Part shown: in pieces, positions 1 through 32,137 of the stretch
Layout of the letters: every line of letters begins with the position of its first letter
Position numbering within the stretch: position 1 is the first letter of the stretch
Source of the DNA: the human T2T-CHM13v2.0 reference genome, Homo sapiens
DNA length: 64,000 nucleotides
Assembly (NCBI RefSeq): GCF_009914755.1
Contig: NC_060948.1
Strand: one strand, 5' to 3'
Translations under genes and position numbers: made by a program
Notes under the pieces: model-generated
What the model was told of the DNA's origin: nothing
Databases searched by the model: none
What the model saw: only the letters and a program-made list of their open reading frames with translations

Positions 1-3000
1 CCATTCCATTCAAGAAGATTCCATTCCATTCAAGTCCATTCCAGTCGATTCCATTCCATTCCATTGCATTCCATTCGATTGTATTCCATTCCATTCCATT
101 AGAATAGATTCCATTCCATTCTATTCCATTCCATTCGATTCATTTCCTTTCGAGTCCATTCCATTCGAGTCCATTCCAATCAAGTCCATTTCATTCCAGT
201 CCATTCCATTCGATTCCCTTCCATTCGATTCTATTCCATTCGATTCTATTCCATTCGATTCTATTCCATTCAATTCTATTCCATTCGATTCCATCCCGTT
301 TGATTGCATTCCATTCGATTGCATTCCATTCGAGTCCATCCAATTGAATCCATTCCATTTGCATCCATTCAATTCGAATCCATTCCATTCGTGTCCATTC
401 CATTCCATTCCATTCCCTTTGAGTCCATTCCATTCGATTCCATTCCATTCCAGTCCATTCCATTCGGTTCCATTCCATTCCTTTCCATTCCATTCGATTC
501 CATTCCATTCGATTCCATTCCATTCAATTCCATTCCATTCGAGACTGTACTATTACACTCCATTCGATTCCATTCCATTCGATTACATTCCATTCGATTC
601 CATTCCATTGCATTCCATTCCATTCCATTAGTTTCCATTCCATTCAATTCCATTCCTTTCGTTTCAAATCCCTTCCATTCAATTCCATTCCATTCAATTC
701 CATTTCATTCGATTCCATTCCTTTCGAGTCCATTCCATTCAAGTCCATATCATTCCAATCCATTCCCTTTGAGTCCATTCCATTCCAGTCCATTCCACTA
801 CAGTCCATTCCATCCAATTCCATTCCATTGGATTACATTCCATTCGAATGCATACCATTCGATTACATTCCATTCGAGTCCATTGAATTACACTCCATTC
901 CATTCCATACCATTCCATTCCATTCGATTGCATTCCATTCAAGTTCATTTCATTGAATTCCATTCCATTCCGGTCGATTACATTCGAGTACAATCCACTC
1001 TATTCCATTCCATACCATTCCATTCCATTCGAGGCGATTCCTTTCAAGTCCATTGCATTGCAGTCCGTTCCATTTGATTCCATCCCATTTGATTCCATCC
1101 CATTCGAGTCCATTCCATTCAAGTCTGTTCCATTCGAGTCCGTTCCATTCGAGTCCGTACCATTCTATTCCATTGCTTTCCTTTCCTTTCCTTTCCTTTC
1201 CATTCCATTCCTTTCCATTCCATTCCATGCGAGTCCATTCCATGCGAGTCCTTTCCATTCCAGTCCATTCCATTCAATTTCGATTGCATTCCATTCCATT
1301 CTAATCCGTTCCATCCGATTGCATGCCATCCGATTGCATGCCATCCGATTTGATTCCATTCTGTTCTATTCCATTCCATTTGATTCCTCTTCCTTTCGAG
1401 TCCATTCCATTCTAGTCCATTCCATTCCAGTCCATTCCATTCGAGTCCATTCCATTCCATTCTAGTCCATTCCATTCCATTAGATTCCAGTGCATTTTAT
1501 GCCATTCCACTCGATTCCATTCCATTCCATTCCATTCCAGTCCATTCGATTCCATTCCATTCAAATCAATTCCATTCCAATCCATTCCATTCCATTCTAT
1601 TCCATTCCATTAAATTTGAATCCATTCCATTCCATTCCAGTCCATTCCTTTCAAGTCCATTCAATTCCATTCCGTTCGAATTCATTCCATTCCATTCCAT
1701 TTGATTCCATTCCATGCCATTCCATTCAATTCAATTCCATTCGATTCCATTCCATTCAAATCAATTCCATTCCAATCCATTCCATTCCATTCTATTCCAT
1801 TCCATTCCACTCTATTCCATTCCATTAAATTTGAATCCATTCCATTCCATTCCAGTCCATTCCTTTCAAGTCCATTCCATTCCATTCCGTTCGAATTCAT
1901 TCCATTCCATTCCATTTGATTCCATTCCATGTCATTCCATTCAATTCAATTCCATTCGATTCCATTCCATTCAAATCAATTCCATTCCATTCTATTCCAT
2001 TCCATTAAATTCGAGTCCAATGCATTCCCTTCCCTTCCATTCCTTTCCATTCCAGTCCATTCCAGTCCAGTCCATTCCATTCGGATCCATTCCATTTCAT
2101 TCCATTGCTTTGAATTCCATTCCATACCATTCCAGTCCAGTCCATTACATTCGAGTCCATTCCATTCGAGTCCATTCCAATTGATTCCCTTTCATTTGAT
2201 TCCATTCCATTCGTTTGCATTCCATTCGATTCCATTCAATTAGATTCCATTCCATTCGTTTCCATTCCATTCGAGTCCATTCCATTCAAGTCCATTCCAT
2301 TCCAGTCCATTACCTTCGAGTCTATTCCATTCCATTCTATTCCATTCCATTCAATTCCATTCCTTTCGATTCCATTCCATTTGAGTCCATTCCATTCCTG
2401 TCCATTCCATTCCATTCAATTCCATTTCATTCCAGTCCATTCCATTCCTTTCCATTCCATTCCATTCGAGTCCATTCCATTGCATTCCATTGCATTCAAT
2501 TCCATTCGATTCCATGCCATTCCAGTCCATTCCTTTTGAGTCCATTCCATTCCATTCCTTTCGAATCCATTCCATTCCATTCCATGTCATTCCATTCCAT
2601 TCCATTCCATTCCATGTCATTCCATTCCATTCCATTCCCTTCGAATCCATTCCATTCCATTCCGTTTCCTTCCATTTGATTCCATAACATTTGATTCGAT
2701 TCAATTCCTTTCCATTCCAATCCATTCCATTCCATTCCATTAAATTCTATTCCATTCCATTTTATTCCATTTCACTCGAGTCCATTCCATTCAAGTCCAT
2801 TCCATTCCAGGCCATTTCTTTCGAGTCCATTCCATTCTATTCCATTCCATTCCATTCCTTTCGGGACCATTCCATTACTGTCCATTCCATTTGAATCCAT
2901 TCCATTCCAGTCCATTACATTTGATTCCATTCCATTCGATTCCATTCCATTCGATTGCCTTCCATTCCAGTCCATTCCATTTGAGTCCATTCCGTTTCCA

Positions 3001-3220
3001 TTCCTTTTGATTCCATTCCTTTCCATTCGAGTCCATTCCATTCCACTCGATTGCATTCCATTCGATTCCATTCCATTCGAGACCGTTCCATTCTGATCCA
3101 TTCAATTCGAGTCCATTCCATTCTATTACATTTCATTAGATTCCATTTCATTTGATTCCATTCCATTCGAGTCCATTCCATTCCATTCCATTCGAATCCA
3201 TTCTATTCCATTCCATTCCA
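1..3220 (+). repeat. Human satellite 3 (HSat3), (CATTC)n, DYZ1-like; open at the left edge
   Basis: Continuous CATTC pentamers with CATTCGATTC, TTCGAGTCC and TTCGAGACC variants; lacks the recurring CGATGATT motif typical of HSat2. Confidence 0.93.
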
Positions 3221-6200
3221 TAACACTCCCGTTCCACTTTACTCCACTCCACTCCATTAAATTCCATTATATCCAATTCCGTTCCACTCCATTCCACTCC
3301 TCTCCTCTCCACTGCACTCCACTGCACTCCATTCCACTCCATCCCATTCCATTCTGCTCCATTCCACTGCAATCCACTCCACCCCACTCATCTCCACTTC
3401 ATTCCATTCCATTCCATCCCATTCCATTCCTCTCCATTCCAGTCCACTCTACTTCACCTCACTCCACTCCACTCTAGTCCACTCCATTCCATTCCATTCG
3501 ATTCCACTGCATTCCACGCTATTCCTTTCTTTCAAAAGTATCTCACTCTGTCACCCTGCCTGCAGCACAGTGGCACAATCTCAGCTCACATTTCATTTCA
3601 CCATTCCATTCCATTCCACTCCACTCTACTCCACTCCAATCCATTCCACTCCACTCCAGTCCACTCCACTCCTTTCCATTCCATCCCATTCCATTCCACT
3701 CCTTTCCACTCCACTCCACTCCATTCCATTCCACTGCATTCCATTCCACTTTACTCCAGTCCACTCCACTCCATTTCATTCCACTGCATTGCATTCCACT
3801 CTTTTCCACTCCATTCCATTTCATTCCACTCCATTCCATTCTACTCCCTTCCACTCCTCTCCACCACATTCCACTCCATTCCATTCCCTTCCATTACATT
3901 ACATTCCATTGCATTCCACTCCACTCCACTCCATTCCTCTCCATTCCATTCCATTCCACTCCACTCCATTCCATGCCATTCCATTCCACTCCACTCCATT
4001 CCATTCCATTGCATTCCACTCCATTCTGCTCCACTCCACTCCACTCCACTCCCTTTCATTCCATTCCACTTCACTCCATTGCATTCCATTCCTTTCTTTC
4101 GACAGGATATCACTGTGTCACCCAGGCTGGAGTGCAGTGGCACAATCTCTGCTCACATTACATGTCAACTTTCCATTTCATTGCATTCTATTCCATTGCA
4201 TTCTGCTGAATTCCATTGCATTCCATTGCATTCCATTGCATTCCATTGTATTCCATTCCATTCCGTTCCACTCCACTCCACTACATTCTATAACATCCAA
4301 TTACATTCCACTCCTCTCCATTCCACTGCTCTCCCCACCACTCCATTCCACTCTATCCCATTCCATTCCACTCCATTCCACTGGACTCCGCTCCACCCCA
4401 CTTCACTCCACTTCATTCCATTCCATTCTATCCCATTCCATTCCTCTCCATTCCACTCCACTCCACTTCACTCCACTCCACTCCACTCCACTCCAGTCCA
4501 CTCCATTCCATTCCACTGCATTCCATTCCTTTCCTTTCTTTTGAGAGTATCTCACTCCATCACCCAGCCTGGAGAGCAGTGGCACAATCTCAGCTGACAT
4601 TTCGTTTCACCATTCCATTCAATTCCAATCCATTCAGTTCCATTCCGCTCCACTCCACTCCACTGCAATCCATTCCACTCCACTCCATTCCATTCCACTC
4701 CACTCCTTTCCATTCCATTCCACTCCTTTCCTCTCCAATGCACTCTACTCCACTCCATTCCATTCCACTCCATTAGATTCCATTCCTTTCTTTTGACAGG
4801 ATCTCACTCTGTCACCCAGGCTGGAGTGCATTGGCACAATCTCAGCCCACTTTTCATTTCACCATTCCATTCCATTCCATTCCACTGTACTCCACTCCAA
4901 TCCACTGAATTCCAGTCCACTCCACTCCAACCTATTCCATTCCATTCAATTCCAATCCCTTCCATTGCACTCCTTTCTTTCGACAGGATCTCCCTCTCAC
5001 ACAGGGTGCAGCGCAGTGGCACAATCTCAGCACACATTTCTTTTCACCATTCCATTCCATTCCGTTCCATTCTGTTCCATTCCATTCATTTCCATTGCAT
5101 TCCATCCCACTCCATTCCATTCCACTCCACTCCTCTCCACTCCACTCCCTTCCATTCCATGCCATTCCGTTCCTTCCTTTCCAAAGGATCTCACTCTGTC
5201 ACATAGGCTGGAGTGCAGTGGCACAATCTCAGCTCACATTTCTTTCCACCATTCCATTGCATTCCATTCCATCCCATTCCATTCCTCTCTATTTCACTCC
5301 ACTCGACTCCATTCCACTCCAGTCGACTCCATTCCACTAAACTCGACTCCACTCAACTCCATTCCATTCCATTCCATACCATTTCACTCCATTGCATTCC
5401 ATAGCTTCTTTTCCACAGTATATCATGGTGTCACCCAGGCTGGAGTGCAGTGGCACTATCTCAGCTCATATTACATGTCAACTTTCCATTGCATTGCATT
5501 CTATTCCATTACATTCAATTGCATTCCATTCCTTTCCATTGCATTCCATTCCATTCCATTCCTTTCCATTCCATTCCACTCCGTTCGACTCCACTCCACT
5601 CCATTCCTCTACATTCCATTACATCCGATTCCATTCCACTCCATTCCACTCCTCTGCACTCCACTGCACTCCACTCCATTCCACTCCATCCCATTCCATT
5701 CCGTTCCATTCCACTGCACTCCACTCCACCCCACTCCACTCCACTTCATTCTATTCCATTCCTCTCCATTCCACGCCACTCCTCTTCACTCCACTCCTCT
5801 CCAGTTCACTCCATTCCGTTCTATTCCATTACATTACATTACACTGCATTCCATTCCATTCCATTCCTTTCTTTCGAGAGTATCTCACTCTGTCACCCAG
5901 CCTGGAGTGTAGTGGCACAATCTCAGCACACATTTCATTTCACCATTCCATTCCATTCTATTCCATCCCATTCCATTCCACTCCACTCCATTCCAGTCCA
6001 TTCCATTCCACTCCTTTCCACTCCACTCCATTCCATTCCACTCCATTCCATTCCTTTGTTTTGACAGGGTCTCACTCTGTCACCCAGGCTGGTGTGCAGT
6101 GGCACAATCTCAGCTCACATTTCATTTCACCATTCCACTCCATTCCATTCCATTCCACCGCACTCCACTCCACTCCACTCAATTCCATTCCACTCCAGTC

Positions 6201-9200
6201 CACTCCATTCCATTCCATTCCAATCCCTTAAATTCCACTCCTTTCCTTCAAAAGGATCTCCCTGTGTCACACAGGCTGTAGCACAGTGGCACAATCTCAG
6301 CACACATTTCTTTTCACCATTTCATTCCATTCCATTCCACTCTATTCCATTCCATTCCCTTCCACTCCACTCCAGTCCTCTCCATTCCACTCCACTCCAC
6401 TCCATTCCACTCCATGCCACTCCATGCCAATCCACTCCATTCCATTCCACTCTACTCCACTCCTCTCCATTCCACTCCAATCCACTCCACTCCATTCCAC
6501 TCCATGCCAGTCCACTCCACTCCATTCCATTCCACTCTATTCCACTCCACTCAACTCAATTCCACTCCCCTCCACTCCACTCCATTCCACTCCATTCCAC
6601 TCCCCTCCCCTCCATTGCATTCCCTTCCATTCCATTCCTTTCTTTCCACAGGATCTCACTCTGTCACAAAGGCTGGAGTGCAGTATCACAATCTCAGCTC
6701 ACATTTATTTTCACCATTCCATTGCGTTCCATTCCATCCCATTCTATTCCACTATATTTCACTCCACTCCACTCCATTCCATTCCACTCCATCCCATTCC
6801 ATTCGACTCCACTCCATTCCACTCCATTGCACTCCACTCCACTCCATTCCATTCCACTCTACTTCTCTCCACTCCACTCCCTTCCATGCCATTCCATTCC
6901 ACTCCACTCCTTTCCATTCCATTCCACTCCACTCCATTCCACTCCACTCCATTCCATTCCACTCCATTCCATGCCATTCCATTCCACTCCACTCCATTCC
7001 ACTCTACTCCATTCCACTCCACTCCACTCCATTCCTTTATTTCTACTGGATCTCACTCTATCAACCAGACTGGAGTTCAGTGGCACAATCTTAGATCACA
7101 TTTCATTTCACCATTCCATTCCATTCAATTCCATTCCATACCACTCCGTTCCACTCCACTCCACTCCACTAAATTCCTTTACATCCGATTCCATTCCACT
7201 CCATTCCACTCCTCTCCTCTCCACTGCACTTCACTCCATTCCACTCCATCCCATTCCACTCCATTCCACTGCAATCCACTCCACCCCACTCATCTCCACT
7301 TCATTCCATTCCATTCCATCCTATTCCATTCCTCTCCATTCCAGTCCACTCCACTTCACCCCACTCCACTCCATTCCATGCCATTCCATTCCACTGCATT
7401 CCATTCTATTCCTTTCTTTTGAAAGTATCTCACTCTGTCACCCAGCCTGGAGCGCAGTGGCACAATCTCAGCTCACATTTCATTTCACCATTCCATTCCA
7501 TTCCATCCCACTCCACTCCACTCCACTCCAATCCATTCCACTCCATTCCACTCCACGCCATTCCAGTCCACTCCACTCCTTTCCATTCCATCCCATTCCA
7601 TTCCACTCCTTTCCACTCCACTCCACTCCATTCCATTCCTTTCTTTTGACAGGATCTCACTCTGTCACCCAGGCTGGTGTGCAGTGGTACAGTCTCATCT
7701 CACATTTCACTTCACCATTCCATTCCATTCCATTCTATTCCACAGCACTCCACTCCACTCAATTCGACTCCACTCCACTCCAATCCATTCCATTCCAATC
7801 CCTTCCATTTCACTCCTTTCTTTCGACAGGATCTCCCTCTGTCACACAGGTTTAGTGCAGTGACACAATCTCAGCACACATTTCTTTTCACCATTTCATT
7901 CCATTCCATTCCGTTCCATTCCATTCCATTCCATTACACTCCATTCCATTCCACTGCATTCCATTCCACTCTACTCCAGTCCACTCCACTCCATTTCATT
8001 CCACCACATTCCATTCCACTCTTTTCCACTCCATTCCACTCTATTCCATTCCATTCCACTCCTCTCCACTCCACTCCATTCCATTTCATTCCATTCCACT
8101 CCATTCCATTCCCTTCCATTCCATTCCCTTCCATTACATTCCATTCGATTGCATTCCACTCCACTCCACTCCATTCCTCTCCATTCCATTCCACTCCACT
8201 CCATTCCATACCATTCCATTCCACTCCATTCCATTCCACTCCACTCCATTCCATTGCATTCCACTCCACTCCACTCCACTCCATTCCATTCCATTTCACT
8301 CCATTGCATTCCATTCCTTTCTTTTGACAGGATATCACTGTGTCACCCAGGCTGGAGTGCAGTGGCACAATCTCTGCTCACATTACATGTCAACTTTCCT
8401 TTTCACTGCATTCTATTCCATTGCATTCCATTGCTTTCCATTGCATTCCATTCCATTCCATTCCACTCCACTCTACTCCACTCCATTCCATACCATTCCG
8501 TTCCTTTCTTTCCAAAGGATCTCACTCTGTCACAGAGGCTGGAGTGCAGTGGCACAATCTCAGGTCACATTACATGTCAACTTTCCATTTCTTTGCATTC
8601 AATTGCATTCCATTCCTTTCCATTACATTCCATCACACTCCGACTCCGACTCCACTCCACTCCTCTACATTCCATTACATCCTATTCCATTCCACTCTAT
8701 TCCACTCCTCTCCACTCCACTGCACTCCACTCCACTCCATTCCACTCCATCCCATTCCATTCCTCTCCATTCGGCTGCACTCCACTCCACCCCACTCCAC
8801 TTCATTGCATTCCATTCCATCTCATTCCATTCATCTCCATTCCACTCCACTCCACTTCACTCCACTCCACTCCTCTGCAGTCCACTCCATTCCATTACAC
8901 TGCATTCCATTCCATTCCTTTCTTTCAAGAGTATCTCACTCTGTCACCCAGCCTGGAGCGTAGTGGCACAATCTCAGCTCACATTATATTTCCCCATTCA
9001 ATTCCATTCTATTCCATTCTATTCCACTCCACTCCACTCCAGTACATTCCACTCCACTCCACTCCAGTACATTCCACTCCACTCCACTCCTTTCCAGTCC
9101 ATTCCAGTCCTTCCCATTCCATCCCATTGCATTCCACTCCTTTCCACTCCACTTCCCTCCACTCCAATCCATTCCATTCCACTCCATTCCATTACATTCC

Positions 9201-10788
9201 TTTCTTTTGACAGGATCCCACTCTGTCACTCAGGCTGGTGTGCAGTGGCACAATCTCAGCTCACATATCATTTCATCATTCCACTCCATTCCATTCCATT
9301 CCACTGCACTCCACTCCACTCAATTCCACTCCACTCTACTCCAATCCATTCCATTCCATTCCAATCCCTTCCATTCCACTCCTTTCTTTTGACAGGATCT
9401 CCCTGTGTCACACATTTCTTTTCACCATTTCATTCCATTCCATTCCACTGCATTCCATTCCATTCCCTTCCACTCCACTCCACTCCTCTCCATTCCACTC
9501 CAGTCCACTCCACTCCATTCCAATCCGTGCCACTCCATTCCACTCCACTCCATTCCATTCCACTCTACTCCACTCCACTCAATTCCACTCCACTCAATTC
9601 CACTCCACTCCACTGCATTCCATTGCACTCCATTCCATTCCGTTCCATTCCTTTCTTTCCACAGGATCTCACTCGGTCACAAAGGCTGGAGTGCAGTGGC
9701 ACAATCTCAGCTGACATTTCTTTTCACCATTCCATTGCATTCCATTCCATCCCATTCCATTCCACTGTATTTCACTCCACTCCACTCCACTCCGTTCCAC
9801 TCCATGCCATTCCATTCCACTCCACTCCACTCCATTGCTTTCCATTCCTTTCCTTCGACAGGATATCTCTGTGTCACCCTGGCTGGAGTGCAGTGGCACA
9901 ATCTCAGCTCACATTACATGTCATCTTTCCATTGCGTTGCATTCTATTCCATTGCATTCCATTCCATTCCATTCCTTTCCATTCTGTTCCATTCCATTCA
10001 ATTCTCTTCCATTCCACTCTGTTCCACTCCACTCCCCTCCACTGCACTACATTCCATTACATCCGATTCCATTACACTCCATTCCAGTCCTCTCCACTCC
10101 AGTGCACTCCACTCCACTCCATTCCACTCCATCCCGTTCCATTCCGCTCCATCCCACTGCACTCCACTCCACCCCTCTCCACTCCTCTTCCTTCATTCCA
10201 TTCCATTCCACCTTTTTCCATTCCTCTTGATTGCACTCCAATCCACTTCACTCCACTCCACTCCAATCCATTCCATTCCATTCCACTGCATTCAATTCCA
10301 TTCCTTTCTTTAGAGAGTATCTCACTCTGTCACCAAGCCTGGAGTGCAGTGGCACAATCTCAGCTCACATTTCATTTCACCATTCCATTGCATTCTACTC
10401 CATTAAATTCCACTCCACTCCACTCCAATCCATTCCACTCCACTCCACTCCATTCCAGTCCACTCCAGTCCTTTCCATTCCATCCCATTCCATTCCACTC
10501 CTTTCTACTCCACTCCACTGCTCTCAACTCCATTACATTCCATTCCACTCCATTCCATTCCAGTACTTTCTTTTGACTGTATCTCACTCTGTCACCCAGG
10601 CTGGTGTGCAGTGGCACAATCTCAGCTCACATTTCATTTCACCATTCCATTCCATTCCATTCCACTGCACTGCACTCCACTCAATTCCACTCCACTCTAC
10701 TCCAATCCGTTCCATTCCATTTCAATCCCTTCCATTCCACTCCTTTCTTTCGACAGGGTCTCCCTCTGTCACACAGGCTGTAGTGCAG
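3221..10788 (+). repeat. Composite satellite: (CATTC/CACTC)n interleaved with 25 antisense Alu 3'-end fragments, 5-mer higher-order repeat
   Basis: GACAGGATCTCACTCTGTCACCCAGGCTGGAGTGCAGTGGCACAATCTCAGCTCAC-like motif recurs 25 times between ~3530 and ~10788, separated by CACTC-rich pentamer tracts; variant types recur in fixed order. Confidence 0.92.
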
Positions 10789-13700
10789 GTGATGAGACTA
10801 TTTTATAGTCTCTGTGTATGGGGGCATTTTGACCTATCTCTGCACTGATCACCCAAGTGATGTAACACTTGACTATGCTCTGCCTATTGGGGCATAGTGA
10901 CATATCACTGCATTGATCACTCAGATGTTGTAGCTCTTGCCTAGGCTCTGCCTACATGGGCATTGTGACACATCTCTGAACTGATCAACCAAGTGATGTA
11001 ACCCTTGTCTAGGCTCTGCCTACAGGAGCTTTGTGACATATCTCTGCACTGATCACCCAGGTGATGGGACTTTTGTCTAGGCTCTGCCTACAGTGGCATT
11101 GTGACATATCTCTACAGTAATCAACCAGGTGATGTAACTCTTGTCTAGGCTCTGCCTACAGGGGGCTTTGTGGTATAACTCTGCACTGATCACCCAGGTG
11201 ATGGGACTCTTCTCTAGGTTCTGCCTATTGGGGGCATTGTCACATATTTCTGCACTGATCACCCAGGTGACGGACTCTTGTCTTGGATCTGCCTATGGAG
11301 GCAATGCGACATATCTCTGAACTAATCACCCAGGTGATGTAACTCTTGTTTAGGCTCTGGCCACAGGGACATAGTGACATATATCTGCACTGATCACACA
11401 GGTAATGTAACTCTTCTCTAGTCTCTGCCTACAGAGGGCGTTGTGACATCACTCTGCAATGATCACCCAGGTGATGTAACCATTGTCTAGGCTCTACCTA
11501 CATGGACATTGTAACATGTCTCTGCACTGATCACCCAGGTGATGTAAATTTTGTCTAGGCTCTGCTCACAGGGGCATTTTGACATATCTCTGCACTGATC
11601 ACCGACATGATGTAACTCTTCTCTGGGCTTTGCCGACAGGACTAATTGAGACATATCTCTGCACTGATCACCGAGGTGATGCAACTCTTGTCTGGGCTCT
11701 CCTTACAGGGCGCATTGTGACATATCTGCCCTGATCACCCAGGTGATATAACTCATTTCTAGGTTCTGCCTACAGGGGCGTTATGACATATCTCTGAAGT
11801 GATCACCGAGGTGATGTAACTCCTGTCTAGGCATTGCTTACAGGGTGCATTGTAACATATCTCTGCACTGATCACCCAGGTGATGTAACCCTTGTCTAGG
11901 ATCTGACTAAAGGTTGCTTTGTCACATAACTTTGCACTGATCATCCATGTGATGGGGCTTTTGTCCAGGCTCTGCCTATGAGGGCATTGTGACGTATTTC
12001 TGCACTGATCATCCAGGTGACAGACTCTTGTCTTGCATCTGCCTCTGGGGGCACTGTGAAATATCTCTGCACTGATCACCCAGGTGATGTAACTGTTATA
12101 TAAGCTCTGCCTACAGGGGAATTGTGAGAGATCTCTCCACGGATCACCCAAGTGATGTAACAATTGTCTAGGCTTTGCCTACAGGGGGTTTTGTGACATA
12201 TCTTTGCACTGATCACCCAGGTGATGTAACTCATCTAAGCTCTGCCTACAGGGGCCTTGTGACATATCTCTGCACTGATCACCCCGGGGAGAGAATTCTT
12301 GTCTAGGCTCTGCCTACAAGGGGCTTTTTGACATATCTCTGCACTGATCACCTAGGTGATGTAACTCTGATCTACCCTCTTCCTACAGGGGGCATTGTGA
12401 AGTATGTCTGCACTGATCACCCAGTTGATGCAACTCTTGTCTAGGATCTGCTGACAGGAGGTATTGTAAAATATCTCTGCACTGATCACCTGGGTGATGT
12501 AACTCGTCTACCCTCTGCCTACAGGGGGTATTGTGAAATATCTCTGCACTGATCAACTAGGTGATGTAACTCTTGTCTAGGCTCTGCCTACAGGGGCGTT
12601 TTGACATATCTCTGAACTGATGACAAAAGTGATGTAACTCTTGCCTAGGCTTTGCCTACAGGGGACATTGTGACATATCTCTGCACTGATCACCCAGGTG
12701 ATGCAACTCTTCTCTATGCTCTGCCTACAAACGGCATTGTGACATATCTCTGCACTGATCACCCAGGTGAAGTAACTTTTCCAGTCTCTGCCTACAGAGG
12801 GCGTTGTGACATCATTCTACACGGATCACCAGGGTTATGTAAGTCTTGTCTAGGCTCTGCCTATGGGAGCACTGTGACGTATCTCTGCACTGATCATCTA
12901 GGAGATGTGACTCTTGTCTAAGCTCTGCCTACAGGGGCATTGGGACATATCTCTGCACTGATCACTGAGATGATGTAACACTTGTCAAGGCTTTGCCTAC
13001 AGTGAGATTTATGACATATCTCTGCACTGATCACCCAGTTGATGTAACTCTTGTCTAGGCTCAGCTTACAGGGGGTATTGTGAGATATCTCTGCACTGAT
13101 CACCCAGGTGATGTAACTCTTGTTAGGCTCTGCCTACAGGGGCATTTTAACATATCACTGCACTGATCACCGAGATGATGTAACTTGTACAGGCTTCGCT
13201 GACAGAGGTCTTTGAGACATATCACTTCACTGATCACCGAGGTGATGCAACTCTTGTCTGGGATCTGCCTACAGGGGGCATTGTGACATATCTCTGCATT
13301 GATCACCGAGGTGATGTAACTCTTGTCTAGGCTCTGCCTGCTGGAGACATTGTGACATATCTCTGCACTGATCACCCAGGTGATGTAACTCTTGTCTAGG
13401 CTCTGCCTACATGGACATTGTGACATGTCTCTGCACTGATCACCCAGGTGATGTAAATTTTTTCTAGGCTCTGCCCTCAGGGGCATTTTGACATATCTCT
13501 GCACTGATGACCTAGATGATGTAATTCTTTTCTGGGCTTTGCCGACAGGAGACATTGAGACATATCTCTGTACTGAACACGGAGGTGATGCAACTCTTGT
13601 GTGGGCTCTGCCTACAGGGGGCATTGTGACATATCTCTGCCCTGATCACCCAGGTGATGTAACTCTTGTCTAGGCTCTGCCTAAAGGGGGTATTGTGACA

Positions 13701-16700
13701 TATCTCTGCACTGATCACATAGGTGATGTAACTTTTTCTAGGCTCTGCCTACAGGGGCGTTTTGACATATCTCTGAAGTGATCACCGAGGTTATGTAACT
13801 CTTGTCTAGGCTTTGCCTACAGGGGGCATTGTAATATATCTCTGCACTGATCACCCAGGTGGTGCAACTCTTCTCTAGGCTCTTCTTACAGGGGGCATTG
13901 TGACATATCTCTGCACTGATCACGCAGGTGACTTAACTCTTCTCTAGGCTCTGCCTACAAGGTGCTTCGTGACATCACTCTGTATTGATCATCAAGGTGA
14001 TGTAACTTTTGTCTAGGCTCTGCCTAAGGGGGCATTGTGACATACCTCTGCACTGATCACTGAGGTGATGTGAACCCTGTCTAAGCTCTCCCTATGGGTG
14101 CATTGTGAGATATCTCTGCACTGATTCCCCAGATGATGCAACTCCTTTCTAGGCTTTGCCTAAAGGGGGATTTGTCACATCTCTATAGTGATCACCCAGG
14201 TGATGTAACCCATTTCTAGGCTCTGCCTACAGGGGAATTGTGACATATCACTGCACTGATCACCCAGGTGATGTAACTCTTCTTTAGGGTGTACTTTCAG
14301 GGGGCTTTGTGACGTACCTCTGCACTGATCAACTAGGCGATATAACTCTTTTCTAGGCTTTGCCCTGAGGGGGCATTGTTACATATCTCCATACTGATCA
14401 CCCAGGTAATGCAACTCTTTTCTACTCTCTGCCTACAGCGGCATTGTGACTTATCACTACACTGATAACACAGGTGATGGGACTCTTCCCTACACTCTGC
14501 CTACAGGGGTCTTCATGACATATCTCTGCACTGATAACTCAGGTGATGGGACTTTTCTCTATACTCTGCCTAAAGGGGGATTTGTGACATTTCTGCACCG
14601 ATAACCCAGGTGATGGAAGTCTTGTCTAGGCTCTGTCTACAGGGATTTTTGTGACATATCACTGCACTGATCACCTAGATGATGTAACTCTCATCTAGGC
14701 TCTGCCTACAGAGGCATTTTGATGTATCACTTCACTGATCACCCAGGTGATATAACTCTTGTCTAGCCTCCGCCTACGGGGGTATTGTGACATATCTCTG
14801 CACTGATCACCCAGGCAATGCAACTCTTCTCTAGGCTCTGCCTACAGGGGTCTTTGTGACATATCTCTGCACTGATCACCCAGGTGATGGAAGTCTTGTT
14901 TAGGCTCTGTCTATGGGGTCATTGTGTCAAATATCTGCACTGATCACCCAGGTGATGTAACTCTTGTTTAGGCTCTGTCTGAAAGGATTTTTGTGACGTA
15001 TCACTGCACTGATCACTTAGATGATTTAATTCTTGTCTAGGCTCTGCCTACAGGGGCATTTTGATGTATCATTGTATTCATTACCCAGGTGATGTAACTC
15101 TTGTCTAGGCTCTGCCTATAGGGGGCATTGCGACATATCTCTGCACTGATCACCCAGCTGATGGAACACTTGTCAAGGCTCTGCCTACATGGGCATTGTG
15201 ACACATCTCTGAACTTATCAACCAAGCGATGTAACTCTTGTCTAGCCTCTGCCTACAGGGGTTTTGTGACATATCTCTGCACTGATCACCCAGCTGATGG
15301 AACTTTTGTCTAGGCTCTGCCTACGGGGGCATTGTGACATATCTCTACACTGACCACCCAGGTGATATAACTCTTGTGTTGGATCTGCCTATGGGGACAT
15401 TGCGACATATTTCTGCACTGATCACCCAGGTGATGGGACTCTTTTCCAGGCTCTGTGTATGGGGGCTTTGTGACATATCTCTGCACTGATCACCTACGTG
15501 ATGAAACCTTTGACTAGGCTCTGCCTACTGGGGCATAGTGACATATCACAGCATTGATCACTCAGATGATGTAACTATTGTCTAGGTTCTGCTTAAAGGG
15601 GCCTTGTCACATATCTCTGCACTGCTCATCCAGCTGATGAAACATTTGTCTAGGCTCTGCCTACATAGGCATTGTGACACATCTCTGAATTGATAAACCA
15701 AATGATGTAACTCTTGTCTAGGCTCTACCTACAGGGGCTTTGTGACATATCTCTGTACTGATCAGCCATGTGATGGGACTTTTGTCTAGGCTCTGCCTAC
15801 GGGGGCATTTTGACATATCTCTACACTGATAATCGAGGTGATTTAACTCTTGTGTTGGATCTGCCTAGGGGGCATTGTGACATATTTCTGCACTGATCAC
15901 CCTGGTGATGGGACTCTTGTCTAGGCTCTGTGTATGGGGGCTTTGTGACATATCTCTGCACTGATGACCCAGGTGATGTAATGCTTGACTAGGCTCTGCC
16001 TACTGGCGCATAGTGACATATCACTGCATTGATCACCGAGGTGATGTAACTGTTGTCCAGGCTCTGCCTATAGGGGGCCTTGTGACATACCTCTGCACTG
16101 ATCATCTAGGTGATGTAACTCTTGCTTATGCTCTGCCTGCAGGGGCATTGTGAAATATCTCTTTACTGAACCACCAGGTGATGTAAATCTTGTCTAGGCT
16201 CTGCCTACAGAGGGCATTGTGGCATAACTCAGCACTGATCACCTAGGTGATGGGACTCTTCTCTAGGCTCTGCCTACAGCGGTCATTGTCACATATTTCT
16301 GCACTGATCATCTAGGTGACGGACTCCTGTCTTGGATGTGCCTATGGGGGCATTGTGACATATCTCTGCACTGCTCACCCAGGTGATGTAACTCTGGTGT
16401 AAGCTCTGCCTAAAGGGGCACCGTGACAGATCTCTGCACTGATCACTCAGGTGATGTAACCATTGTCTAGGCTCTGCTTAAAGGGGCCTTGTCACATATC
16501 TCTGCACTGATCACCCAGGTGATATAACTCTTGTCTAGGCTCTGCTTACAGGGGGTATTTTGGCATATCTCTGCACTGGTCACCTAACTGATGTAACACT
16601 TGAGTAGGCTCTGCCTGCAGTGGCATTTTGACATACCTCTGCCCTGATAAGCAAGGTGATTTAACCCTTGTCTACGCTGTTCCCACAGGGGGATTGAGAC

Positions 16701-19700
16701 GTATCTCTGCACTGATCCCGAGGTGATCCAACTCTTTTCTGGGCTCTGCCTACTGGGGACATTGTGACATATCTCTGCACTGATCTCCCTGGTGATGTAA
16801 CATTTGTCTGGGCTCTGGCTACACGGCATTGTGACATATCACTGCACTTATCACCCAGGTGATATAACTCTTGTCTAGGCTCTGCCTACAGGAGGCTTGT
16901 GACATACCTCTGCACTGCTCACCCAGGTGATGTAACTCTTGTCTAGGATCTGCCTACAGGGTGCTTTGTGACATATCCCTGCAATGATCACCCAGATGAT
17001 GTACCACTTGTCAAGGCTCTGCCTACAGGGGCATTGCGATGTATCTGCACTGATCACCTAAGTCATGTAACTCTTATCTAGGCTCTGCCAACAGTGGCAT
17101 TGTGACATATCTCTGCACTGATCACCCCGTGGAGAGAATTCTTGTCTAGGCTCTGCCTACAGGGGCCTTTGTGAGAGATCTCTGCACTGATCACCTAGGT
17201 GATATAAAACTTATAAGCTCTGCCTACAGGGAATTTTGACAAATCTCTGTACTGATCACCTAGGTGATGTAACTCTTGTCTACCCTCTGCCTACAGGGGG
17301 CATTGTGAAATATCTCTGCACTGATAACCCAAGTGATGCAACTCTTGTCTAGGATCTGCCTACAGGGGGTATTGTGAAATATCTCTGCACCGATCAACTA
17401 GGTGATGTAACTCTTTTCTAGGCTCTGCCTACAGGGGCGTTTTGACATATCTCTGAACTGATGAGAAAGGTGATGTAACTCTTGCCTAGGCTTTGCCTAC
17501 AGGGGACATTGTGACATATCTCTGCACGGATCACCCAGGTGATGTAACTCTTTTCTAGTCTATGCCTACGGACGGTGTTGTGACATCACTCTGCACATAT
17601 CACCCGGGTTATGTAACTCTTGTCTGGGCTCTGCTTATGGGAGCATTGTGACTTATCTCTGCACTGATCACCCAGGTGATGTAACTCTTGTCTAAGCTCT
17701 GCCTACAGGGGCATTGGGACATATCTCTACACTGATCACTGAGGTGATGTAACACTTGTCTAGGTTTTGCCTACAGTAGGATTTATGACATATCTCTGCA
17801 CTGATCTCCCAGTTGATGTAATTCTTGCCTAAGCTCTGCTTACAGGGGTATTGTGAGATCTCTGCACTGATCACCCAGGTGATATAATTCTTGTCTAGGC
17901 TCTGCGAACAGGGGCATTTTAACTTATCACTGCACTGATCATCGAGGTGATGCAACTCTTGTCTGGGATCTGCCTACGGGTGGCATTGTGACATATCTCT
18001 GACCTGATCACCCAGGTGATGTAACTCTTGTCTAGGCTCTGCCTGCTGGAGACATTGTGACTTATCTCTGCACTGATCACCCAGGTGATGTATCTCTTGT
18101 CTAGGCTCTGGCCACAGGGACATAGTGACATATATCTGCACTGATCACACAGGTAATGTAACTCTTCCCTAGTCTTTGCCTACAGAGGGCGTTGTGACAT
18201 ATCTCTGCACTGATCTCTCAGGTGAGGTTACTCTTGTCTAGTCTCTGCCTACAGAGGGCGTTGTGACATCACTCTGCAATGATCACCCAGGTGATGTAAC
18301 CATTGTCTGGGCTCTACCTACATGGACATTGTAACATGTCTCTGCACTGATCACCCAGGTGATGTAAATTTTGTCTAGGCTCTGCTCACAGGGGCATTTT
18401 GACATATCTCTGCACTGATCACCGAGATGATGTAACTCTTCTCTGGGCTTTGCCGACAGGACTAATTGAGACATATCTCTACACTGATCACCGAGGTGAT
18501 GCAACTCTTGTCTAGGCATTGCTTACAGGGTGCATTGTAACATATCTCTGCACTGATCACCCAGGTGATGCAACTCTTCTCTAGGTTTTGCCTACAGAGT
18601 GCATTGTGACATATCTCTGCAGTGATCTCCCCGGTGATGTAACCTTTGCCTAGGCTCTGGCCACGCGTCATTGTGACATATCACTGCACTGATCACCCAT
18701 GTGATATAACTCTTGTCTAGGCTCTGCCTATAGTGGCATTGTGACATATCTCTGCACTGATCACCCATGTGATATAACTCTTGTCTGGGCTCTGCCTACA
18801 GTGGCATTGTGACATATCTCTGCACTGATCACCCAGGTGATATAACTATTGTCTAGGATCTGCCTACAGGCTGCTTTGTGACATATCCCTGCAATGATCA
18901 TCCAGGTGATGTACCATTTGTCAAGGCTCTCCTTAAAGGGGCATTGCGATGTATCTCTGCACTGATCACCTAGGTCATGTGACTCTTGTCTAGGCTCTGC
19001 CTGCAGTGGCATTGTGACATATCTCTGCACTGATCACCCAGGTGATATAACTCTTGTCTGGGATCTGCCTAAATGGACTTTGTGACAGAACCCTGCACTG
19101 ATCATCCAGGTGATGGGGTTTTTGTCTAGGCTCTTCCTACGGGGGCATTCTGACTTATTTCTGCACTGATCACCCAGGTGACGGACTCTTGTCTTGCATC
19201 TGCCTATGGGGGCATTGTGACATATCTCAGCACTGATCACCCAGGTGGTGTAACTGTTGTATAAGCTCTACCTACAGGGGAATTGTGAGAGATGTCTTTA
19301 CTCATCCCCCAAGTAATGTAACTATTGCCTAGGCTTAGCCTACAGGGGGCTTTGTGACATAACTTTGCACTCACCACCCAGGTGATGTAACTCATTTAAG
19401 CTCTGCCTACAGGGGCTTTGTGACATATCTCTGCACTTATCACTCCTGGAGAGAGAATTCTTGGCTAGGCTCTGCCCACAGGGAGCTTTGTGACATATAT
19501 CTCTGCACTGATCACGTAGGTGATGTAACACTTTTATAAGCTCTGCCTACAGGGAATTTTGACAAATCTCTGCACTGATCACCTAGGTCATTTAACAGTT
19601 CTCTACGCGCTGCCTACAGGGGGCAATGTGAAAAATCTCTGCACTGATCACCCCGGTGATGCAAGTCTTGTCTAGGATCTGCCTACAGTGGGTATTGTGA

Positions 19701-22700
19701 AATATCTCAGCACTGATCACCTAGGTGATGTAACTTTTTTCTACCCTCTGCCTACAGGGGGCAATGTGAAAAATCTCTGCACTGATCACCCAGGTGATGC
19801 AAGTCTTGTCTAGGATCTGCCTAAAGGGGCATTTTAACATATCTCTGAACTGATGGCAAAGGTGATGTAACTCTTGCCTAGGCTCTGCCTACAGGGGACA
19901 TCGTGACATATCTCTGCACTGATCACCCAGGTGATGTAACTCCTGTCTAGGCTCTGCCTACAGGGGCATTTTAATATATCACTGCACTGATCACCGAGGT
20001 GATGCAACTCTTGTCTGGGATCTGCCCACAGGGGGCATTGTGACATATCTCTGACGTGATCACCCAGGTGATGTAACTCTTGTCTAGGCTCTGCCTACTG
20101 GAGACATTGTGATAGACATTGTGACTTATCTCTGCACTGATCACCCAGGTGATGGAACTCTTGTCTAGGCTCTGGCAACAGGGACATAGTGACATATATC
20201 TGCACTGATCACACAGGTGATGTAACTCTTTTCTAGTCTTTGACTACAGAGGGCGTTGTGACATATCTCTGCACTGATCTCTCAGGTGAGGTAACTCTTG
20301 TCTAGTATCTGCCTACAGAGGGCGTTGTGACATCACTCTGCAATGATCACCCAGGTGATGTAACCCTTGTCTAGGCTCTGCCTACATGGACATTGTGACA
20401 TGTCTCTGCACTGATCACCCAGGTGATGTAAATTTTGTCTGGGCTCTGCCCACAGGTGCATTTTGACATATCTCTGCACTGGTCACGGAGAAGATGTAAC
20501 TCTTCTCTGGGCTTTGCCGACAGGAGGCATTGAGACATATCTCTGCACTGATCACCGAGATGATGCAACTCTAGTCTGGGCTCTGCCTACAGGGTGCTTG
20601 TGACCTATCTGCCCTGATCACCCAGGTGATATAACTCTTGTCTAGGCTCTGCCTCAAGGGGGTATTGTGACATATCTCTGCACTGATCACCCAGGTAATG
20701 CAACTCTTCTCTAGGCTCTGCCTACAAGGTCCTTTGTGACATCACTATGTATTGATCATCCCGGTGATGTAACTTTTGTCTCAGCTCTGCCTACAGGGGC
20801 TTCGTGACATATCTCTGCACTGATCACCCAGGTGATGGGACTTTTGTCTAGGCTCTGCCTATGGGGGCATTGTGACATATCTCTACACTGATCACCCAGG
20901 TGATGTAACTCTTATGTTGGGTCTGCCTATGGGGGCATTGCAACATATTTCCGCACTGATCACCCTGGTGATGGGACTCTTGCTTACGCTCTGCCTGCAG
21001 TTGCATTTTGAAATATATCTTTACTGATCAACCAGGTGATGTAACCCTTGTCTGGGATCTGCCTACAGGGTGCTTTGTGACATATCCCTACAATGGTCAC
21101 CCAGGTGATATACCACTTGTCAAGGCTCTGCCTAAAGGGGCTTTGCTGTGTATCTCTTCACTGATCACCTAGGTCATGAAACTCTTGTCTAGGCTCTGCT
21201 TACAGGGGGTATTTTGACATATCTCTGCACTGATCACCTAAGTGATGTAACACTTGAGTAGGCTCTGCCTACACTGGCATTTTGACATACTCTGCCCTGA
21301 TAAGCAAGGTGATTTAACTCTTGTCTACGCTGTTCCCACATGGGGATTGAGACGTATCTCTGCACTGATCCCGAGGTGATCCAACTCTTTTCTGGGCTCT
21401 GCCTACTGGGGACATTGTGACATATCTCTGCACTGATCTCCCAGGTGATGAAACTTTTGTCTAGGCTCTGGCTACACGGCATTGTGACATATCACTGCAC
21501 TTATCACCCAGGTGATATAACTCTTGTCTAGGCTCTGCCTACAGGGACCTTGTGACATATCTCTGCACTGCTCACCCAGGTGATGTACCATCTGTCAAGG
21601 CTCTGCCTACAGAGGCATTGCGATGTATCTCTGCACTGATCACCTAGGTCATGTAACTCTTGTCTAGACTCTGCCTACACTGGCATTGTGACATATCCCT
21701 GCACTGATCACCCAGGTTATGTAACTCTTGTCTAGGATCTGCCTACAGGGTGCTTTGTGACATATGCCTGCAATTATCACCCAGGTGATGTACCACTTGT
21801 CAAGGCTCTGCCTACAGGAGCATTGTTATGTATCTCTGCACTGATCACCTGGGTCATGTAACTCTTGCCTAGGCTCTGCCTACAGTGGCATTGCGACATA
21901 TCTCTGCTCTGATCACCCAACTGATTTAACTCTTGTCTAGGATCTGCCTAAAGGGTCTTTGTGACGTAACTCTGCCCTCATCATCCAGGTGATGGGGCTT
22001 TTGTCTAGGCTCTGCCTACGGGGGCATTGTGACGTATTTCTGCTCTGATCACCCAGGTGACGGACTCTTGTCTTGCATCTGCCTATGGGGGCATTATGAC
22101 ATATCTCTGCACTGATCACCGAGGTGATGTAACTGTTGTATAAGCTCTGCCTACTTGTGAGTTGTGAGAGATCTCTCCACTGATCGCCCAAGTGATTTAA
22201 CTATTGTCTTGGCTTTTCCTACACGGGGCTTTGTGACATATCTGTTCACTGATCACCCAGGTGATGTAACTCATCTAAGCTCTGCCTACAGGGGCCTTGT
22301 GATATATCTCTGCACTGATCACTCCCGGGGTGGGAATTCTCGTCTAGGCTCTGCCTACAGGGGGCTTTGTGACATATCTCTGCACTGATCACCTAGGTGA
22401 TGTAACAGTTTTATAAGCTCTGCCTACAGGGAATTTTGACAAATCTCTGCACTGATCACCTAGGTGATGTAACTCTTGTTTAGGCTCTGCCTACAGGGGG
22501 CATTTTGATATATCTCTGCACTGATCACCCAGGTGATGCAACTCTTCTCTAGGAACTGCCTAAAGGGGGTATTGTGAAATATCTCTGCACTGATCAACTA
22601 GGTGATGTAACTCTTGTCTAGGCTCTACCTACAGAGGCATTTTGATGTATCTCTGAACTGACGAGAAAGGTGATGTAACTCTTGCCTAGGCTTTGCCACA

Positions 22701-25300: not shown

Positions 25301-25306
25301 GATTAA

Positions 25307-28906
<3,600 letters not shown>

Positions 28907-31696: not shown

Positions 31697-31980
31697 GGCC
31701 GGGAACAGTGGCTCATGCCTGCAATTCCAGCACTTTGGGAGGCCGAGGCAGGCAGATCACCTGAGGTCAGGAGTTCGAGACCAGCCCGACCAACATGGTA
31801 AAACCCCGTCTCTACTAAAAAAAAATTAGCCAGGCGTGGTGGTGGGCACCTGTAATCCCAGCTTCTTGGGAGGCCGAGGCAGGGAGAATTGCTTGAACCC
31901 AGGAGGTGGAGGTTGCAGTGAGCTGAGATTGTGCCATTGCACTCCAGCCTGGGTGACAAGAGCAAGACTCCATCTCCAAA
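31697..31980 (+). mobile_element. AluS (Sq/Sp-like)
   Basis: Full dimer; GCCATTGCAC and GACAAGAGC diagnostics; probable TSD AAGAAAGTT(C)AG at 31685 and ~32190. Confidence 0.9.
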
Positions 31981-32035
<55 letters not shown>

Positions 32036-32137
32036 GAAAGAAAAGAAAGAAAAGAAAGAAAGAAAAGAAAGAAAGAAAGAAAGAAAAGAAAGAAAGAAGG
32101 AAAGAAGGAAAGAAGGAAAGAAGGAAAGAAGGAAGGA

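What the first reader, a model, noticed from the sequence alone, without database searches (positions are those of the whole stretch)
3524..10788. Alu-fragment/pentamer composite satellite with a 5-monomer higher-order repeat
25 copies of one ~55-bp antisense Alu 3'-end fragment, almost all stopping at ..CTCAGCTCAC, fall into five types: A (GAGTATCTC..CAGCCTGG), B (GGATCTCAC..GGCTGGTGTG), C (TCTCCCT..CACACAGG..GCACACATTTCTTTT), D (TTCCACAGG/CCAAAGG..CACAAAGG) and E (GGATATC..ATTACATGTCAAC). They recur as A-B-C-D-E with type A at ~3535, 4543, 5876, 7421, 8928 and 10313 (later periods ~1.33-1.55 kb). This implies two rounds of amplification: one captured Alu piece became a monomer, and five diverged monomers then amplified as a HOR. 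Standard masking would split it into many Alu scraps and simple repeats and hide the structure. I cannot confirm whether it has already been named; it differs from DYZ2 (HSat1B-AluY).
Basis: seen in the sequence. Interest (0 to 1): 0.8.

Follow-up and report, generated by a model that had tools for sequence, protein, structure and literature searches.

The report
Old Alu-tagged pentamer satellite, five-part repeat
This is a real but old and decayed stretch of human satellite 3 in which every repeat carries the same small relic of one Alu element, arranged in a five-type cycle; the same block is copied on several other chromosomes and its satellite class is already in print, so only the five-type order looks new.

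Summary
Window 3538-10788 has 25 same-strand copies of a ~56-nt antisense Alu 3'-end piece inside an (ATTCC)n-type array. They fall into types A-E, and 18 of 24 successive steps follow A>B>C>D>E>A (0 of 5000 shuffles reach this). Same-type units also match through their pentamer spacers.

It is not a new or Y-specific satellite.
- Units are only 85-92.5% alike, so the repeat is old.
- The whole array, its junction with a 14.5-kb beta-satellite array and both non-satellite flanks form a segmental duplication. It is shared with chr13, 14, 15 and 22 short arms (98.2% at aligned sites, fragment for fragment).
- The distal flank also matches chr21. Older, more diverged copies lie on chr1, 3, 4, 13 and 22.
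- The Alu-end/pentamer junction occurs at least 2779 times in this genome on 12 chromosomes.
- The T2T-Y paper already reports HSat3 intermingled with Alu fragments on Y and the acrocentrics. It says it saw no clustering by subgroup.

The five-type cyclic order also appears in unrelated arrays near the Y centromere and on chr4, 9 and 14. I found it in no paper.

Verdict: a known satellite class with a new structural detail. Interest is low to moderate.

The parts
1..3205 (.). Alu-free part of the same pentamer (ATTCC/ACTCC) array. The array begins about 570 bp before the window start.
   Evidence: TRF period 5. No core hit in 1-3500. Pentamer word content rises from 0.06 to 0.44 about 500 bp before the window. 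A local 215-bp duplication lies at 1499-2006, 93.5% identical.
3538..10788 (-). Alu-tagged pentamer array: 25 pieces of an Alu 3' end. The Alu sense strand is the minus strand; the pieces read antisense on +.
3538..4546 (.). Unit 1: A, E. B and C are absent here but present in the older copies on chr13 at 5.00 Mb and chr1.
4547..5877 (.). Unit 2: A B C D E (canonical).
5878..7422 (.). Unit 3: A B C D X. X at 7048-7110 is a sixth type.
   Evidence: The same X is present in every paralog.
7423..8928 (.). Unit 4: A B C E then a D-head/E-tail hybrid.
   Evidence: The chr13, 14, 15 and 22 copies have A B C E D E here.
8516..8600 (-). Hybrid fragment made by a Y-lineage 257-bp deletion that fused a D fragment with the next E fragment.
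   Evidence: A 257-bp gap in Y relative to at least 3 of the 4 aligned copies (chr13, 14, 15, 22) at about 8557. D and E are separate in those copies.
8929..10315 (.). Unit 5: A B C D E. The C fragment at about 9390-9420 is internally deleted.
   Evidence: The deletion is shared with the chr13, 14, 15 and 22 copies.
10316..10788 (.). Unit 6: A B and a C fragment cut at its middle by the next satellite.
   Evidence: The same junction is exact in 6 of the 7 copies searched (Y, chr14, chr15, chr13 twice, chr3) and one base off in chr22.
10786..25298 (.). 68-bp satellite array (beta-satellite type by its 68-bp period). It is part of the same duplicated block.
   Evidence: TRF 212.6 copies, 78% matches. 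The 68-bp unit of beta satellite is as stated in the passage.
25300..30100 (+). Non-satellite flank including CTBP2P1. It is the distal part of the segmental duplication.
   Evidence: 98% identical over all 4801 bases to chr21, 22, 13, 15 and 14 short arms. It is colinear with the array copies on chr13, 14, 15 and 22.

Best explanation
Window about -570 to 10785 is a small, old, decayed array of the human satellite 3 (HSat3, GGAAT/CATTC-derived) kind. Its distal 7.25 kb belongs to a genome-wide HSat3 class in which each monomer carries the relic of a single Alu 3' end with its A-tail.

Steps that are shown:
1. All pieces share both boundaries, here and in every other array sampled, so they descend from one captured piece.
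2. Here the monomers fall into five main types in a cyclic order, and same-type monomers match through their spacers. A multi-monomer unit of about 1.0-1.55 kb was therefore amplified about 5.5 times.
3. The units have since diverged to 85-92.5% identity. They have been eroded by 5-bp-multiple slippage indels and by unequal exchange between Alu pieces. Examples are the D/E fusion, the missing B and C in unit 1, and the internally deleted C.
4. The array was cut by a beta-satellite array. The whole block, with non-satellite sequence on both sides, was then copied between distal Yq and the acrocentric short arms. Identity is 98.2% at aligned sites, so this step is several-fold younger than the amplification.

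Steps that are inferred:
- The founding event was a 5'-truncated Alu retroposition, or an insertion followed by a deletion, into a GGAAT array. The A-tail runs straight into the pentamers.
- Amplification was by unequal crossing-over in a larger ancestral array. The same cyclic order is seen in unrelated arrays near the Y centromere and on chr4, 9 and 14.
- The array has no function of its own beyond that of HSat3 heterochromatin. It holds 242 CATTCC words, which is the TEAD core GGAATG on the other strand.
For: - Array and pieces.
- Tree: each of A, B, C, D, E is one side of a branch. Support is A 94/92, C 94/86, E 90/81, D 75/85, B only 65/0. The 7 labels need 6 changes, the minimum possible (shuffled mean 16.6; 0 of 200 shuffles as low).
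- Lag-5 and lag-10 identity peaks. Permutation 5 of 20000, and 25 of 26 strong strict-scoring self-matches pair same types with spacers at 85-92.5% over 160-630 nt.
- Cyclic steps 18 of 24, 0 of 5000 shuffles as high.
- Paralogs: the unit 5878-7422 matches chr14, 15, 13 and 22 at 92-95% and chr13 at 5.00 Mb and chr3 at 78%. The fragment-for-fragment listing shows the same junction.
- MAFFT identity: 98.2% Y against the acrocentric copies. chr15 equals chr13 over 7874 nt. Indels are multiples of 5. There is one 257-bp Y deletion.
- Flank 98% identical. Homology runs from about 8 kb before the window.
- Family size: 548, 1542 and 2779 motif hits at up to 2 mismatches, 0 in the reversed controls.
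- Shared boundaries in 405 fragments.
- Cyclic order elsewhere: chrY 11.25 Mb 17 of 23 (0 of 5000), chrY 11.19 Mb 12 of 24 (10 of 5000), chr14 4.67 Mb 10 of 24 (3 of 5000), chr9 11 of 25 (17 of 5000), chr4 49.53 Mb 10 of 27 (32 of 5000).
- Type-defining head and tail motifs co-occur in 271 fragments of 11 other stretches: E p=1e-23, A 4e-9, D 2.5e-6, C head against C end 2e-6.
- Print: HSat3 with Alu fragments on Y and the acrocentrics. TEAD core in HSat3.
Against: - The cycle is irregular. Only 2 of 6 units are A B C D E, and there is a sixth type X.
- The B clade is weakly supported (65/0). B may simply be the least-changed form.
- Type labels were set by eye. In other arrays they were set by nearest neighbour to the window's fragments, and many calls there fall below 85% identity.
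- Five of the 14 other sampled stretches show no cyclic order. Three are mostly B-like with a period of about 350 bp. The other two are chr21 6.48 Mb and chr16.
- One type test fails: C head against C mid, p=0.13.
- The published most-common 24-mers of the HSat3 subfamilies give no exact hit here or in any sampled stretch, so the subfamily is unassigned.
- Rhie et al. report no phylogenetic clustering of HSat3-Alu fragments by subgroup. That disagrees with the type clades seen here. Their tree used subsampled, longer Alu sequences.
- The retroposition origin and the lack of function are inferences.
Confidence: 0.85

Rival explanations
1. The Alu scraps are many independent Alu insertions into an HSat3 array, that is, a transposon insertion hotspot. 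This is how counts of 'Alu insertions in HSat3' are usually read.
For: A 2026 centromere preprint lists SINE/Alu as enriched in HSat3 (about 81 per Mb) under TE insertion patterns (passages). RepeatMasker-style masking would report them as Alu pieces.
Against: 0 of 405 sampled fragments continue into Alu sequence past the common end. 368 are followed by the same three bases, and 398 have the same tail relic at the same distance. All 25 in the window are on one strand. They recur with their spacers.
Confidence: 0.02
2. A young, Y-specific higher-order repeat satellite that is still being homogenised at this site.
For: Periodic A positions and five types.
Against: Units are only 85-92.5% alike. 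The same fragments in the same order, with the same junction, lie on chr13, 14, 15 and 22 at 98.2%, and in older form on chr1, 3, 4 and 13. No sampled array of the class is homogeneous.
Confidence: 0.03
3. There was no monomer stage. A ~1.4-kb stretch of pentamers that already held several Alu-piece copies from small local duplications was simply duplicated a few times as a block. That would make it a nested tandem repeat in Altemose's sense rather than a higher-order repeat built from once-uniform monomers.
For: Monomer lengths are very unequal, 177-567 nt. The cycle is irregular. HSat2/3 long units are described as nested tandem repeats rather than HORs (passage).
Against: Arrays made almost only of B-like monomers with a period of about 350 bp exist on chr13 and chr14, so a monomeric stage is plausible. 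B monomers here are very uniform, 177-187 nt. The two pictures differ mainly in wording.
Confidence: 0.1

Closest known systems
HSat3 arrays intermingled with Alu fragments on chrY and the acrocentric short arms (Rhie et al., T2T-Y preprint 10.1101/2022.12.01.518724; passages read)
   Same: The same thing at class level: pentamer satellite with Alu fragments, on Y and acrocentrics, fragments related across chromosomes, and no local homogenisation. That agrees with the 85-92% unit identity here.
   Different: The paper reports no clustering by subgroup and describes no repeat unit. Here the pieces form five positional types in a cyclic order, in this array and in several unrelated ones. The paper's supplements and Fig. 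5d could not be seen.
DYZ2 / HSat1B (2.4-2.5-kb unit: Alu part, AT-rich part over 85% AT, further satellite part)
   Same: A satellite whose unit contains a piece of one Alu that was amplified with it. Present on Y and the acrocentrics.
   Different: No AT-rich part here (GC 47.4%, minimum 36% per 100 nt). Only about 56 nt of Alu. The background is pentamers. The unit is 1.0-1.55 kb. The units are not homogenised.
DYZ1 / HSat3A6 (about 3.6-kb nested tandem repeat of CATTC-derived sequence)
   Same: A longer unit nested in a pentamer satellite on the Y.
   Different: DYZ1 is Y-specific, huge and much more uniform. The published HSat3A6 24-mer has 0 exact hits here. DYZ1 units are not described as carrying this Alu piece.
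Alpha-satellite higher-order repeats
   Same: Diverged monomer types in a fixed cyclic order. Same-position monomers are more alike than neighbours (0.916 against 0.841).
   Different: Monomers here have unequal length, units are far less alike than in active HORs, the order is irregular, and the sequence is unrelated. The properties of alpha HORs are taken from the passage and from general knowledge.
Composite repeats of Hoyt et al. (definition quoted)
   Same: A tandem unit that mixes a transposon piece with simple or satellite repeats.
   Different: The definition asks for three or more repeated sequences per unit. Here there are two kinds of sequence. The main text of that preprint has no mention of HSat3, CATTC or pentamer. 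Its supplements are closed.

Membership tests
Human satellite 3 (HSat3) | Tandem array derived from the pentamer CATTC/GGAAT | tested here: met
   TRF: period 5, consensus ATTCC, window 18-10562, 2072 copies, 67% matches. 380 ATTCC and 303 ACTCC words in 3524-10788.
Human satellite 3 (HSat3) | Pericentromeric, acrocentric short-arm or Yq location shared between chromosomes | tested here: met
   Copies and relatives on chr1, 3, 4, 7, 9, 13, 14, 15, 16, 21, 22 and Y.
HSat3 subfamilies A1-A6, B1-B2 (Altemose 2014) | Presence of the subfamily's most common specific 24-mer (Table 1 of PMC4022460, read) | tested here: inconclusive
   0 exact hits for all 11 tested 24-mers in window 1-10800. In the 21 stretches, 8 of them were tested and only one stretch (chr16) has an exact hit, to 3A4. 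One 24-mer per subfamily is too thin a test. The proper tool (chm13_hsat) and the cenSat track were not available.
HSat3 B-type | The 10-nt insert seen inside the published 3B1 24-mer. Its role as a marker is recalled, not from a call. | tested here: not met
   0 occurrences on either strand in all 21 stretches.
DYZ2 / HSat1B | Extremely AT-rich part (over 85% AT) in each unit | tested here: not met
   Lowest GC in any 100-nt window is 36%.
DYZ2 / HSat1B | Unit of about 2.4-2.5 kb | tested here: not met
   A-to-A periods are 1009, 1333, 1545, 1506 and 1386.
Higher-order repeat in the alpha-satellite sense | Discrete number of monomers of similar length (wording) | tested here: not met
   Monomers are 177-567 nt. 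Units hold 2, 5, 5, 5, 5 and 3 fragments, or 6 in unit 4 of the acrocentric copies.
Higher-order repeat in the alpha-satellite sense | Same-position monomers more alike than neighbouring monomers | tested here: met
   0.916 against 0.841, with lag-5 and lag-10 peaks. 25 of 26 strong matches pair same types.
Nested tandem repeat (NTR) of HSat2/3 | A longer repeat unit, hundreds of bases to kilobases, nested in the simple pentamer repeat | tested here: met
Alu-derived sequence | Colinear match to the 3' end of an Alu including the tail | tested here: met
   By eye against the window's own antisense Alus at about 36.27 kb and 53.56 kb. The Alu subfamily (S or Y) was not tested, because no consensus library was at hand. 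The T2T-Y paper calls them AluY.

The most novel reading that the evidence does not exclude
A whole class of human satellite 3 descends from one Alu 3'-end capture and once had a five-monomer higher-order repeat (A-B-C-D-E). The class has at least 2779 Alu-tagged monomers, roughly 1 Mb, on 12 chromosomes. It includes arrays beside the Y centromere and on every acrocentric short arm. Relics of the five-monomer repeat survive in scattered arrays.

If so, three things follow:
1. The Alu relic puts an upper age limit on this class of HSat3.
2. It gives a register mark for tracing how acrocentric, pericentromeric and Yq blocks were exchanged.
3. 'Alu insertions in HSat3' counted in recent centromere surveys are mostly not insertions.

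The published analysis saw no subgroups.
Probability: 0.45. Interest if true: 0.45.

Novelty: new member of a known kind. Interest (0 to 1): 0.3.

Why it matters
As a locus it matters little. It is a passive, decayed copy inside a known Yq/acrocentric duplication. The wider point is modest but useful.
- The Alu scraps that masking reports inside this class of HSat3 are one amplified relic, not insertions.
- They define discrete monomers in a satellite family that is otherwise said to lack them.
- The relic bounds the age of this HSat3 class by the age of the Alu.

Tried and rejected
- Default-scoring self-BLAST of the array was useless. The pentamer background aligns at every offset at about 70%. 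Strict scoring (+1/-4) was needed.
- A best-match regex flag lost most fragments and was replaced.
- Assigning an HSat3 subfamily from the published 24-mers gave nothing.
- I considered whether the RepeatMasker family HSAT5 might be this unit. The papers read give no sequence description. One calls HSat5 G4-motif-rich, which does not fit a GGAAT/GGAGT sequence without G-runs. This remains untested because no Dfam library was at hand.
- The Hillier 2005 chromosome 2/4 paper is not held.
- I looked for a large homogeneous 'source' array with the same unit. None of six sampled stretches is homogeneous. The best long self-matches are 85-92%, apart from a 5.8-kb duplication on chr16 at 98.8%.
- I considered a target-site duplication around the Alu piece. 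The flanks are alike, but both are pentamer-derived, so this says nothing.
- ORFs, RNA families and protein tools were not used, because the sequence is satellite DNA.
Full report
WHAT IS THERE

Window 18-10562 is a period-5 array with consensus ATTCC. A 68-bp array follows directly from 10786 and runs to 25298. The pentamer array in fact starts about 570 bp before the window.

A 23-nt core of the Alu-like piece (up to 5 mismatches) hits the + strand 31 times in the whole window. Of these, 23 lie in 3567-10630 and none in 1-3500. None of the 8 minus-strand hits falls in the array. Two truncated copies bring the number to 25: one near 9390-9420 with an internal deletion, and the last at 10756-10788.

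The window's own full antisense Alus show what the piece is. It is the Alu 3' end read backwards, from the poly-T tail to ...GCTCAC, and it stops where an Alu would go on. The tail relic runs straight into the pentamers.

FIVE TYPES AND THEIR ORDER

By eye the fragments read A E | A B C D E | A B C D X | A B C E D/E | A B C D E | A B C. A-to-A periods are 1009, 1333, 1545, 1506 and 1386.

An 84-column maximum-likelihood tree puts each of A, B, C, D and E on one side of a branch. Support is A 94/92, C 94/86, E 90/81, D 75/85 and B only 65/0. The labels need the minimum of 6 changes, against a shuffled mean of 16.6 (0 of 200 as low). The labels came from the same sequences, so the tests that count are positional:
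- Mean identity is 0.881 at lag 5 and 0.886 at lag 10, against 0.837-0.855 at other lags. Only 5 of 20000 permutations reach the lag-5 value.
- 18 of 24 steps follow A>B>C>D>E>A. The shuffle mean is 4.2 and 0 of 5000 shuffles are as high.

The best unsupervised evidence is a strict-scoring self-comparison. Of 27 matches of 190 bits or more, one is a local 215-bp duplication in the Alu-free part. Twenty-five pair same-type fragments (A-A, B-B, BC-BC, D-D, E-E, EA-EA) together with their pentamer spacers. One pairs the spacers after two C fragments. These matches are 85-92.5% identical over 160-630 nt.

So a multi-monomer unit was amplified, spacers included. It is old and irregular. Monomers are 177-567 nt, with B very constant at 177-187.

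THE ARRAY IS A COPY INSIDE A SEGMENTAL DUPLICATION

One unit (5878-7422) finds 92-95% matches on chr14 (3.44 Mb), chr15 (5.32 Mb), chr13 (9.96 Mb) and chr22 (6.54 Mb). It finds 78% matches on chr13 (5.00 Mb) and chr3 (95.39 Mb). Other units of the Y array itself score only 73-75%.

The four close copies hold the same fragments position for position. They share the odd X fragment, the internally deleted C and the last C fragment cut at the same base by the 68-bp satellite. They hold 26 fragments. Where Y has one D-head/E-tail hybrid (8525), they have a D and then an E. The alignment shows a 257-bp gap in Y there, so the hybrid comes from unequal exchange between two Alu pieces in the Y lineage.

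At aligned sites Y is 98.2% identical to each of the four. chr15 and chr13 are identical over 7874 nt, chr14 is at 99.9% to these and chr22 at 98.8% to the other three. The many small indels are multiples of five.

The non-satellite flank 25300-30100, which includes CTBP2P1, is 98% identical to chr21, 22, 13, 15 and 14. It is colinear with the array copies on chr13, 14, 15 and 22. On the other side, homology to chr14 and chr22 starts about 8 kb before the window.

The amplification (units 7.5-15% apart) is therefore several-fold older than the duplication (1.8% apart). Nothing was amplified at this site on the Y.

THE CLASS IS GENOME-WIDE

The junction of Alu end and non-Alu tail occurs 2779 times at up to 2 mismatches. 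Two type-restricted versions occur 548 and 1542 times. All reversed controls give 0. The listed places are on chr1, 3, 4, 7, 9, 13, 14, 15, 16, 21, 22 and Y (11.15-11.51 Mb).

Fourteen further 10-kb stretches each hold 15-32 fragments on one strand. In 19 stretches, 0 of 405 fragments continue as an Alu, 368 are followed by ATT, and 398 carry the tail relic at the same distance. The near-identical chr15 and chr13 copies were left out of this count. One capture explains all of them.

Stretches on chr1, chr4 (49.64 Mb) and chr22 (5.96 Mb) repeat the window's order and are older copies of the block.

Stretches that share only 2-5 strong matches with the window array still show the cycle:
- chrY 11.25 Mb: 17 of 23 steps (0 of 5000 shuffles)
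- chrY 11.19 Mb: 12 of 24 (10 of 5000)
- chr14 4.67 Mb: 10 of 24 (3 of 5000)
- chr9: 11 of 25 (17 of 5000)
- chr4 49.53 Mb: 10 of 27 (32 of 5000)

Five stretches do not show it. Three are mostly B-like with a period of about 350 bp. A chr7 stretch repeats A-E-A.

In 271 fragments of the 11 stretches that are not copies of the block, the head and tail marks of a type go together: E p=1e-23, A 4e-9, D 2.5e-6, C head against C end 2e-6. C head against C mid gives only p=0.13 and B is weak. Labels in these stretches are nearest-neighbour calls to the window's fragments, and many are below 85%.

No sampled array is homogeneous.

WHAT IS KNOWN

I read passages of the T2T-Y preprint. [quoted passage not shown] It states that those on the Y cluster with those on the acrocentrics. 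It finds no local homogenisation and no clustering by subgroup or chromosome. The first three points match what I see. The last does not match the five types.

Other passages read:
- Altemose 2021 calls long HSat2/3 units nested tandem repeats, to set them apart from HORs with discrete monomers.
- Altemose 2014 has no mention of Alu in its main text.
- Hallast et al. describe an HSat3 array and DYZ17 beside the Y centromere but no Alu piece in them.
- Franklin et al. do not mention Alu.
- A 2026 centromere preprint counts Alus in HSat3 as TE insertions.
- The Hoyt et al. main text has no HSat3-Alu composite.

Nine searches turned up no description of a five-type unit. I could not see Dfam, the cenSat track or bioRxiv supplements, and the library lacks most subscription journals of the 1980s-90s. 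Those journals are where satellite III clones from acrocentrics were described. 'Not in print' is therefore only as strong as these searches.

MECHANISM AND VERDICT

Shown:
- one captured Alu 3' end
- amplification of a multi-monomer unit together with its spacers
- later decay by 5-bp slippage and by exchange between Alu pieces
- truncation by beta satellite
- copying of the whole block between Yq and the acrocentric short arms

Inferred:
- capture by a 5'-truncated retroposition into GGAAT repeats
- unequal crossing-over in a larger ancestral array as the amplifier
- no function beyond that of HSat3 heterochromatin

The array holds 242 CATTCC words, which is the TEAD core described for HSat3.

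It is not DYZ2. There is no AT-rich part and the unit size is different.

The finding is a correct and careful reading of the sequence. The object is a member of a known satellite class at a known duplicated site. What looks new is the five-type cyclic organisation and its presence in unrelated arrays.

Noticed in passing
L010 (chr15:5.31-5.32 Mb) and L011 (chr13:9.96 Mb): The two acrocentric copies of the array are identical over all 7874 aligned bases, and chr14 is at 99.9% to them. Y and chr22 are 1-2% away. This fits ongoing exchange between some acrocentric short arms.
   Followed up: partly
L019 (chr7:57.73-57.74 Mb): An array of the same class built as a three-fragment cycle A-E-A with a period of about 1.3-1.8 kb (22 fragments: 15 A-like, 7 E-like). 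This is a different multi-monomer unit from the same monomer types.
   Followed up: partly
chr22:5.967-6.005 Mb (places listed): One E-type junction recurs four times at steps of 12,635, 12,620 and 12,650 bases. A piece of this satellite therefore sits inside a larger ~12.6-kb tandem unit on 22p.
   Followed up: no
L024, L025, L028 (chr14:9.76 Mb, chr13:13.17 Mb, chr14:7.98 Mb): Arrays made mostly of B-like fragments with a period of about 350 bp and no cyclic order. These may be the monomeric form of the class.
   Followed up: partly
window 1499-2006: A local 215-bp tandem duplication (293 nt at 93.5%) in the Alu-free pentamer part. It is the strongest self-match there.
   Followed up: no
window 10786-25298: The 68-bp satellite also scores nearly as well with a 137-bp period, which points to a dimeric organisation.
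   Followed up: no
window 2696-7161 and beyond: RefSeq lists back-to-back ~744-bp 'enhancer' tiles across the satellite. This sequence has near-identical copies on five or more chromosomes, so such calls may reflect multi-mapping reads. Not tested.
   Followed up: no
L020 (chr16:35.64-35.65 Mb): A 5.8-kb direct duplication at 98.8% over 1628 nt within an array of the same class. It is the only recent-looking event in the stretches sampled.
   Followed up: no
window 31980-32196: An (AAAG)n tract of 53 copies just after CTBP2P1.
   Followed up: no
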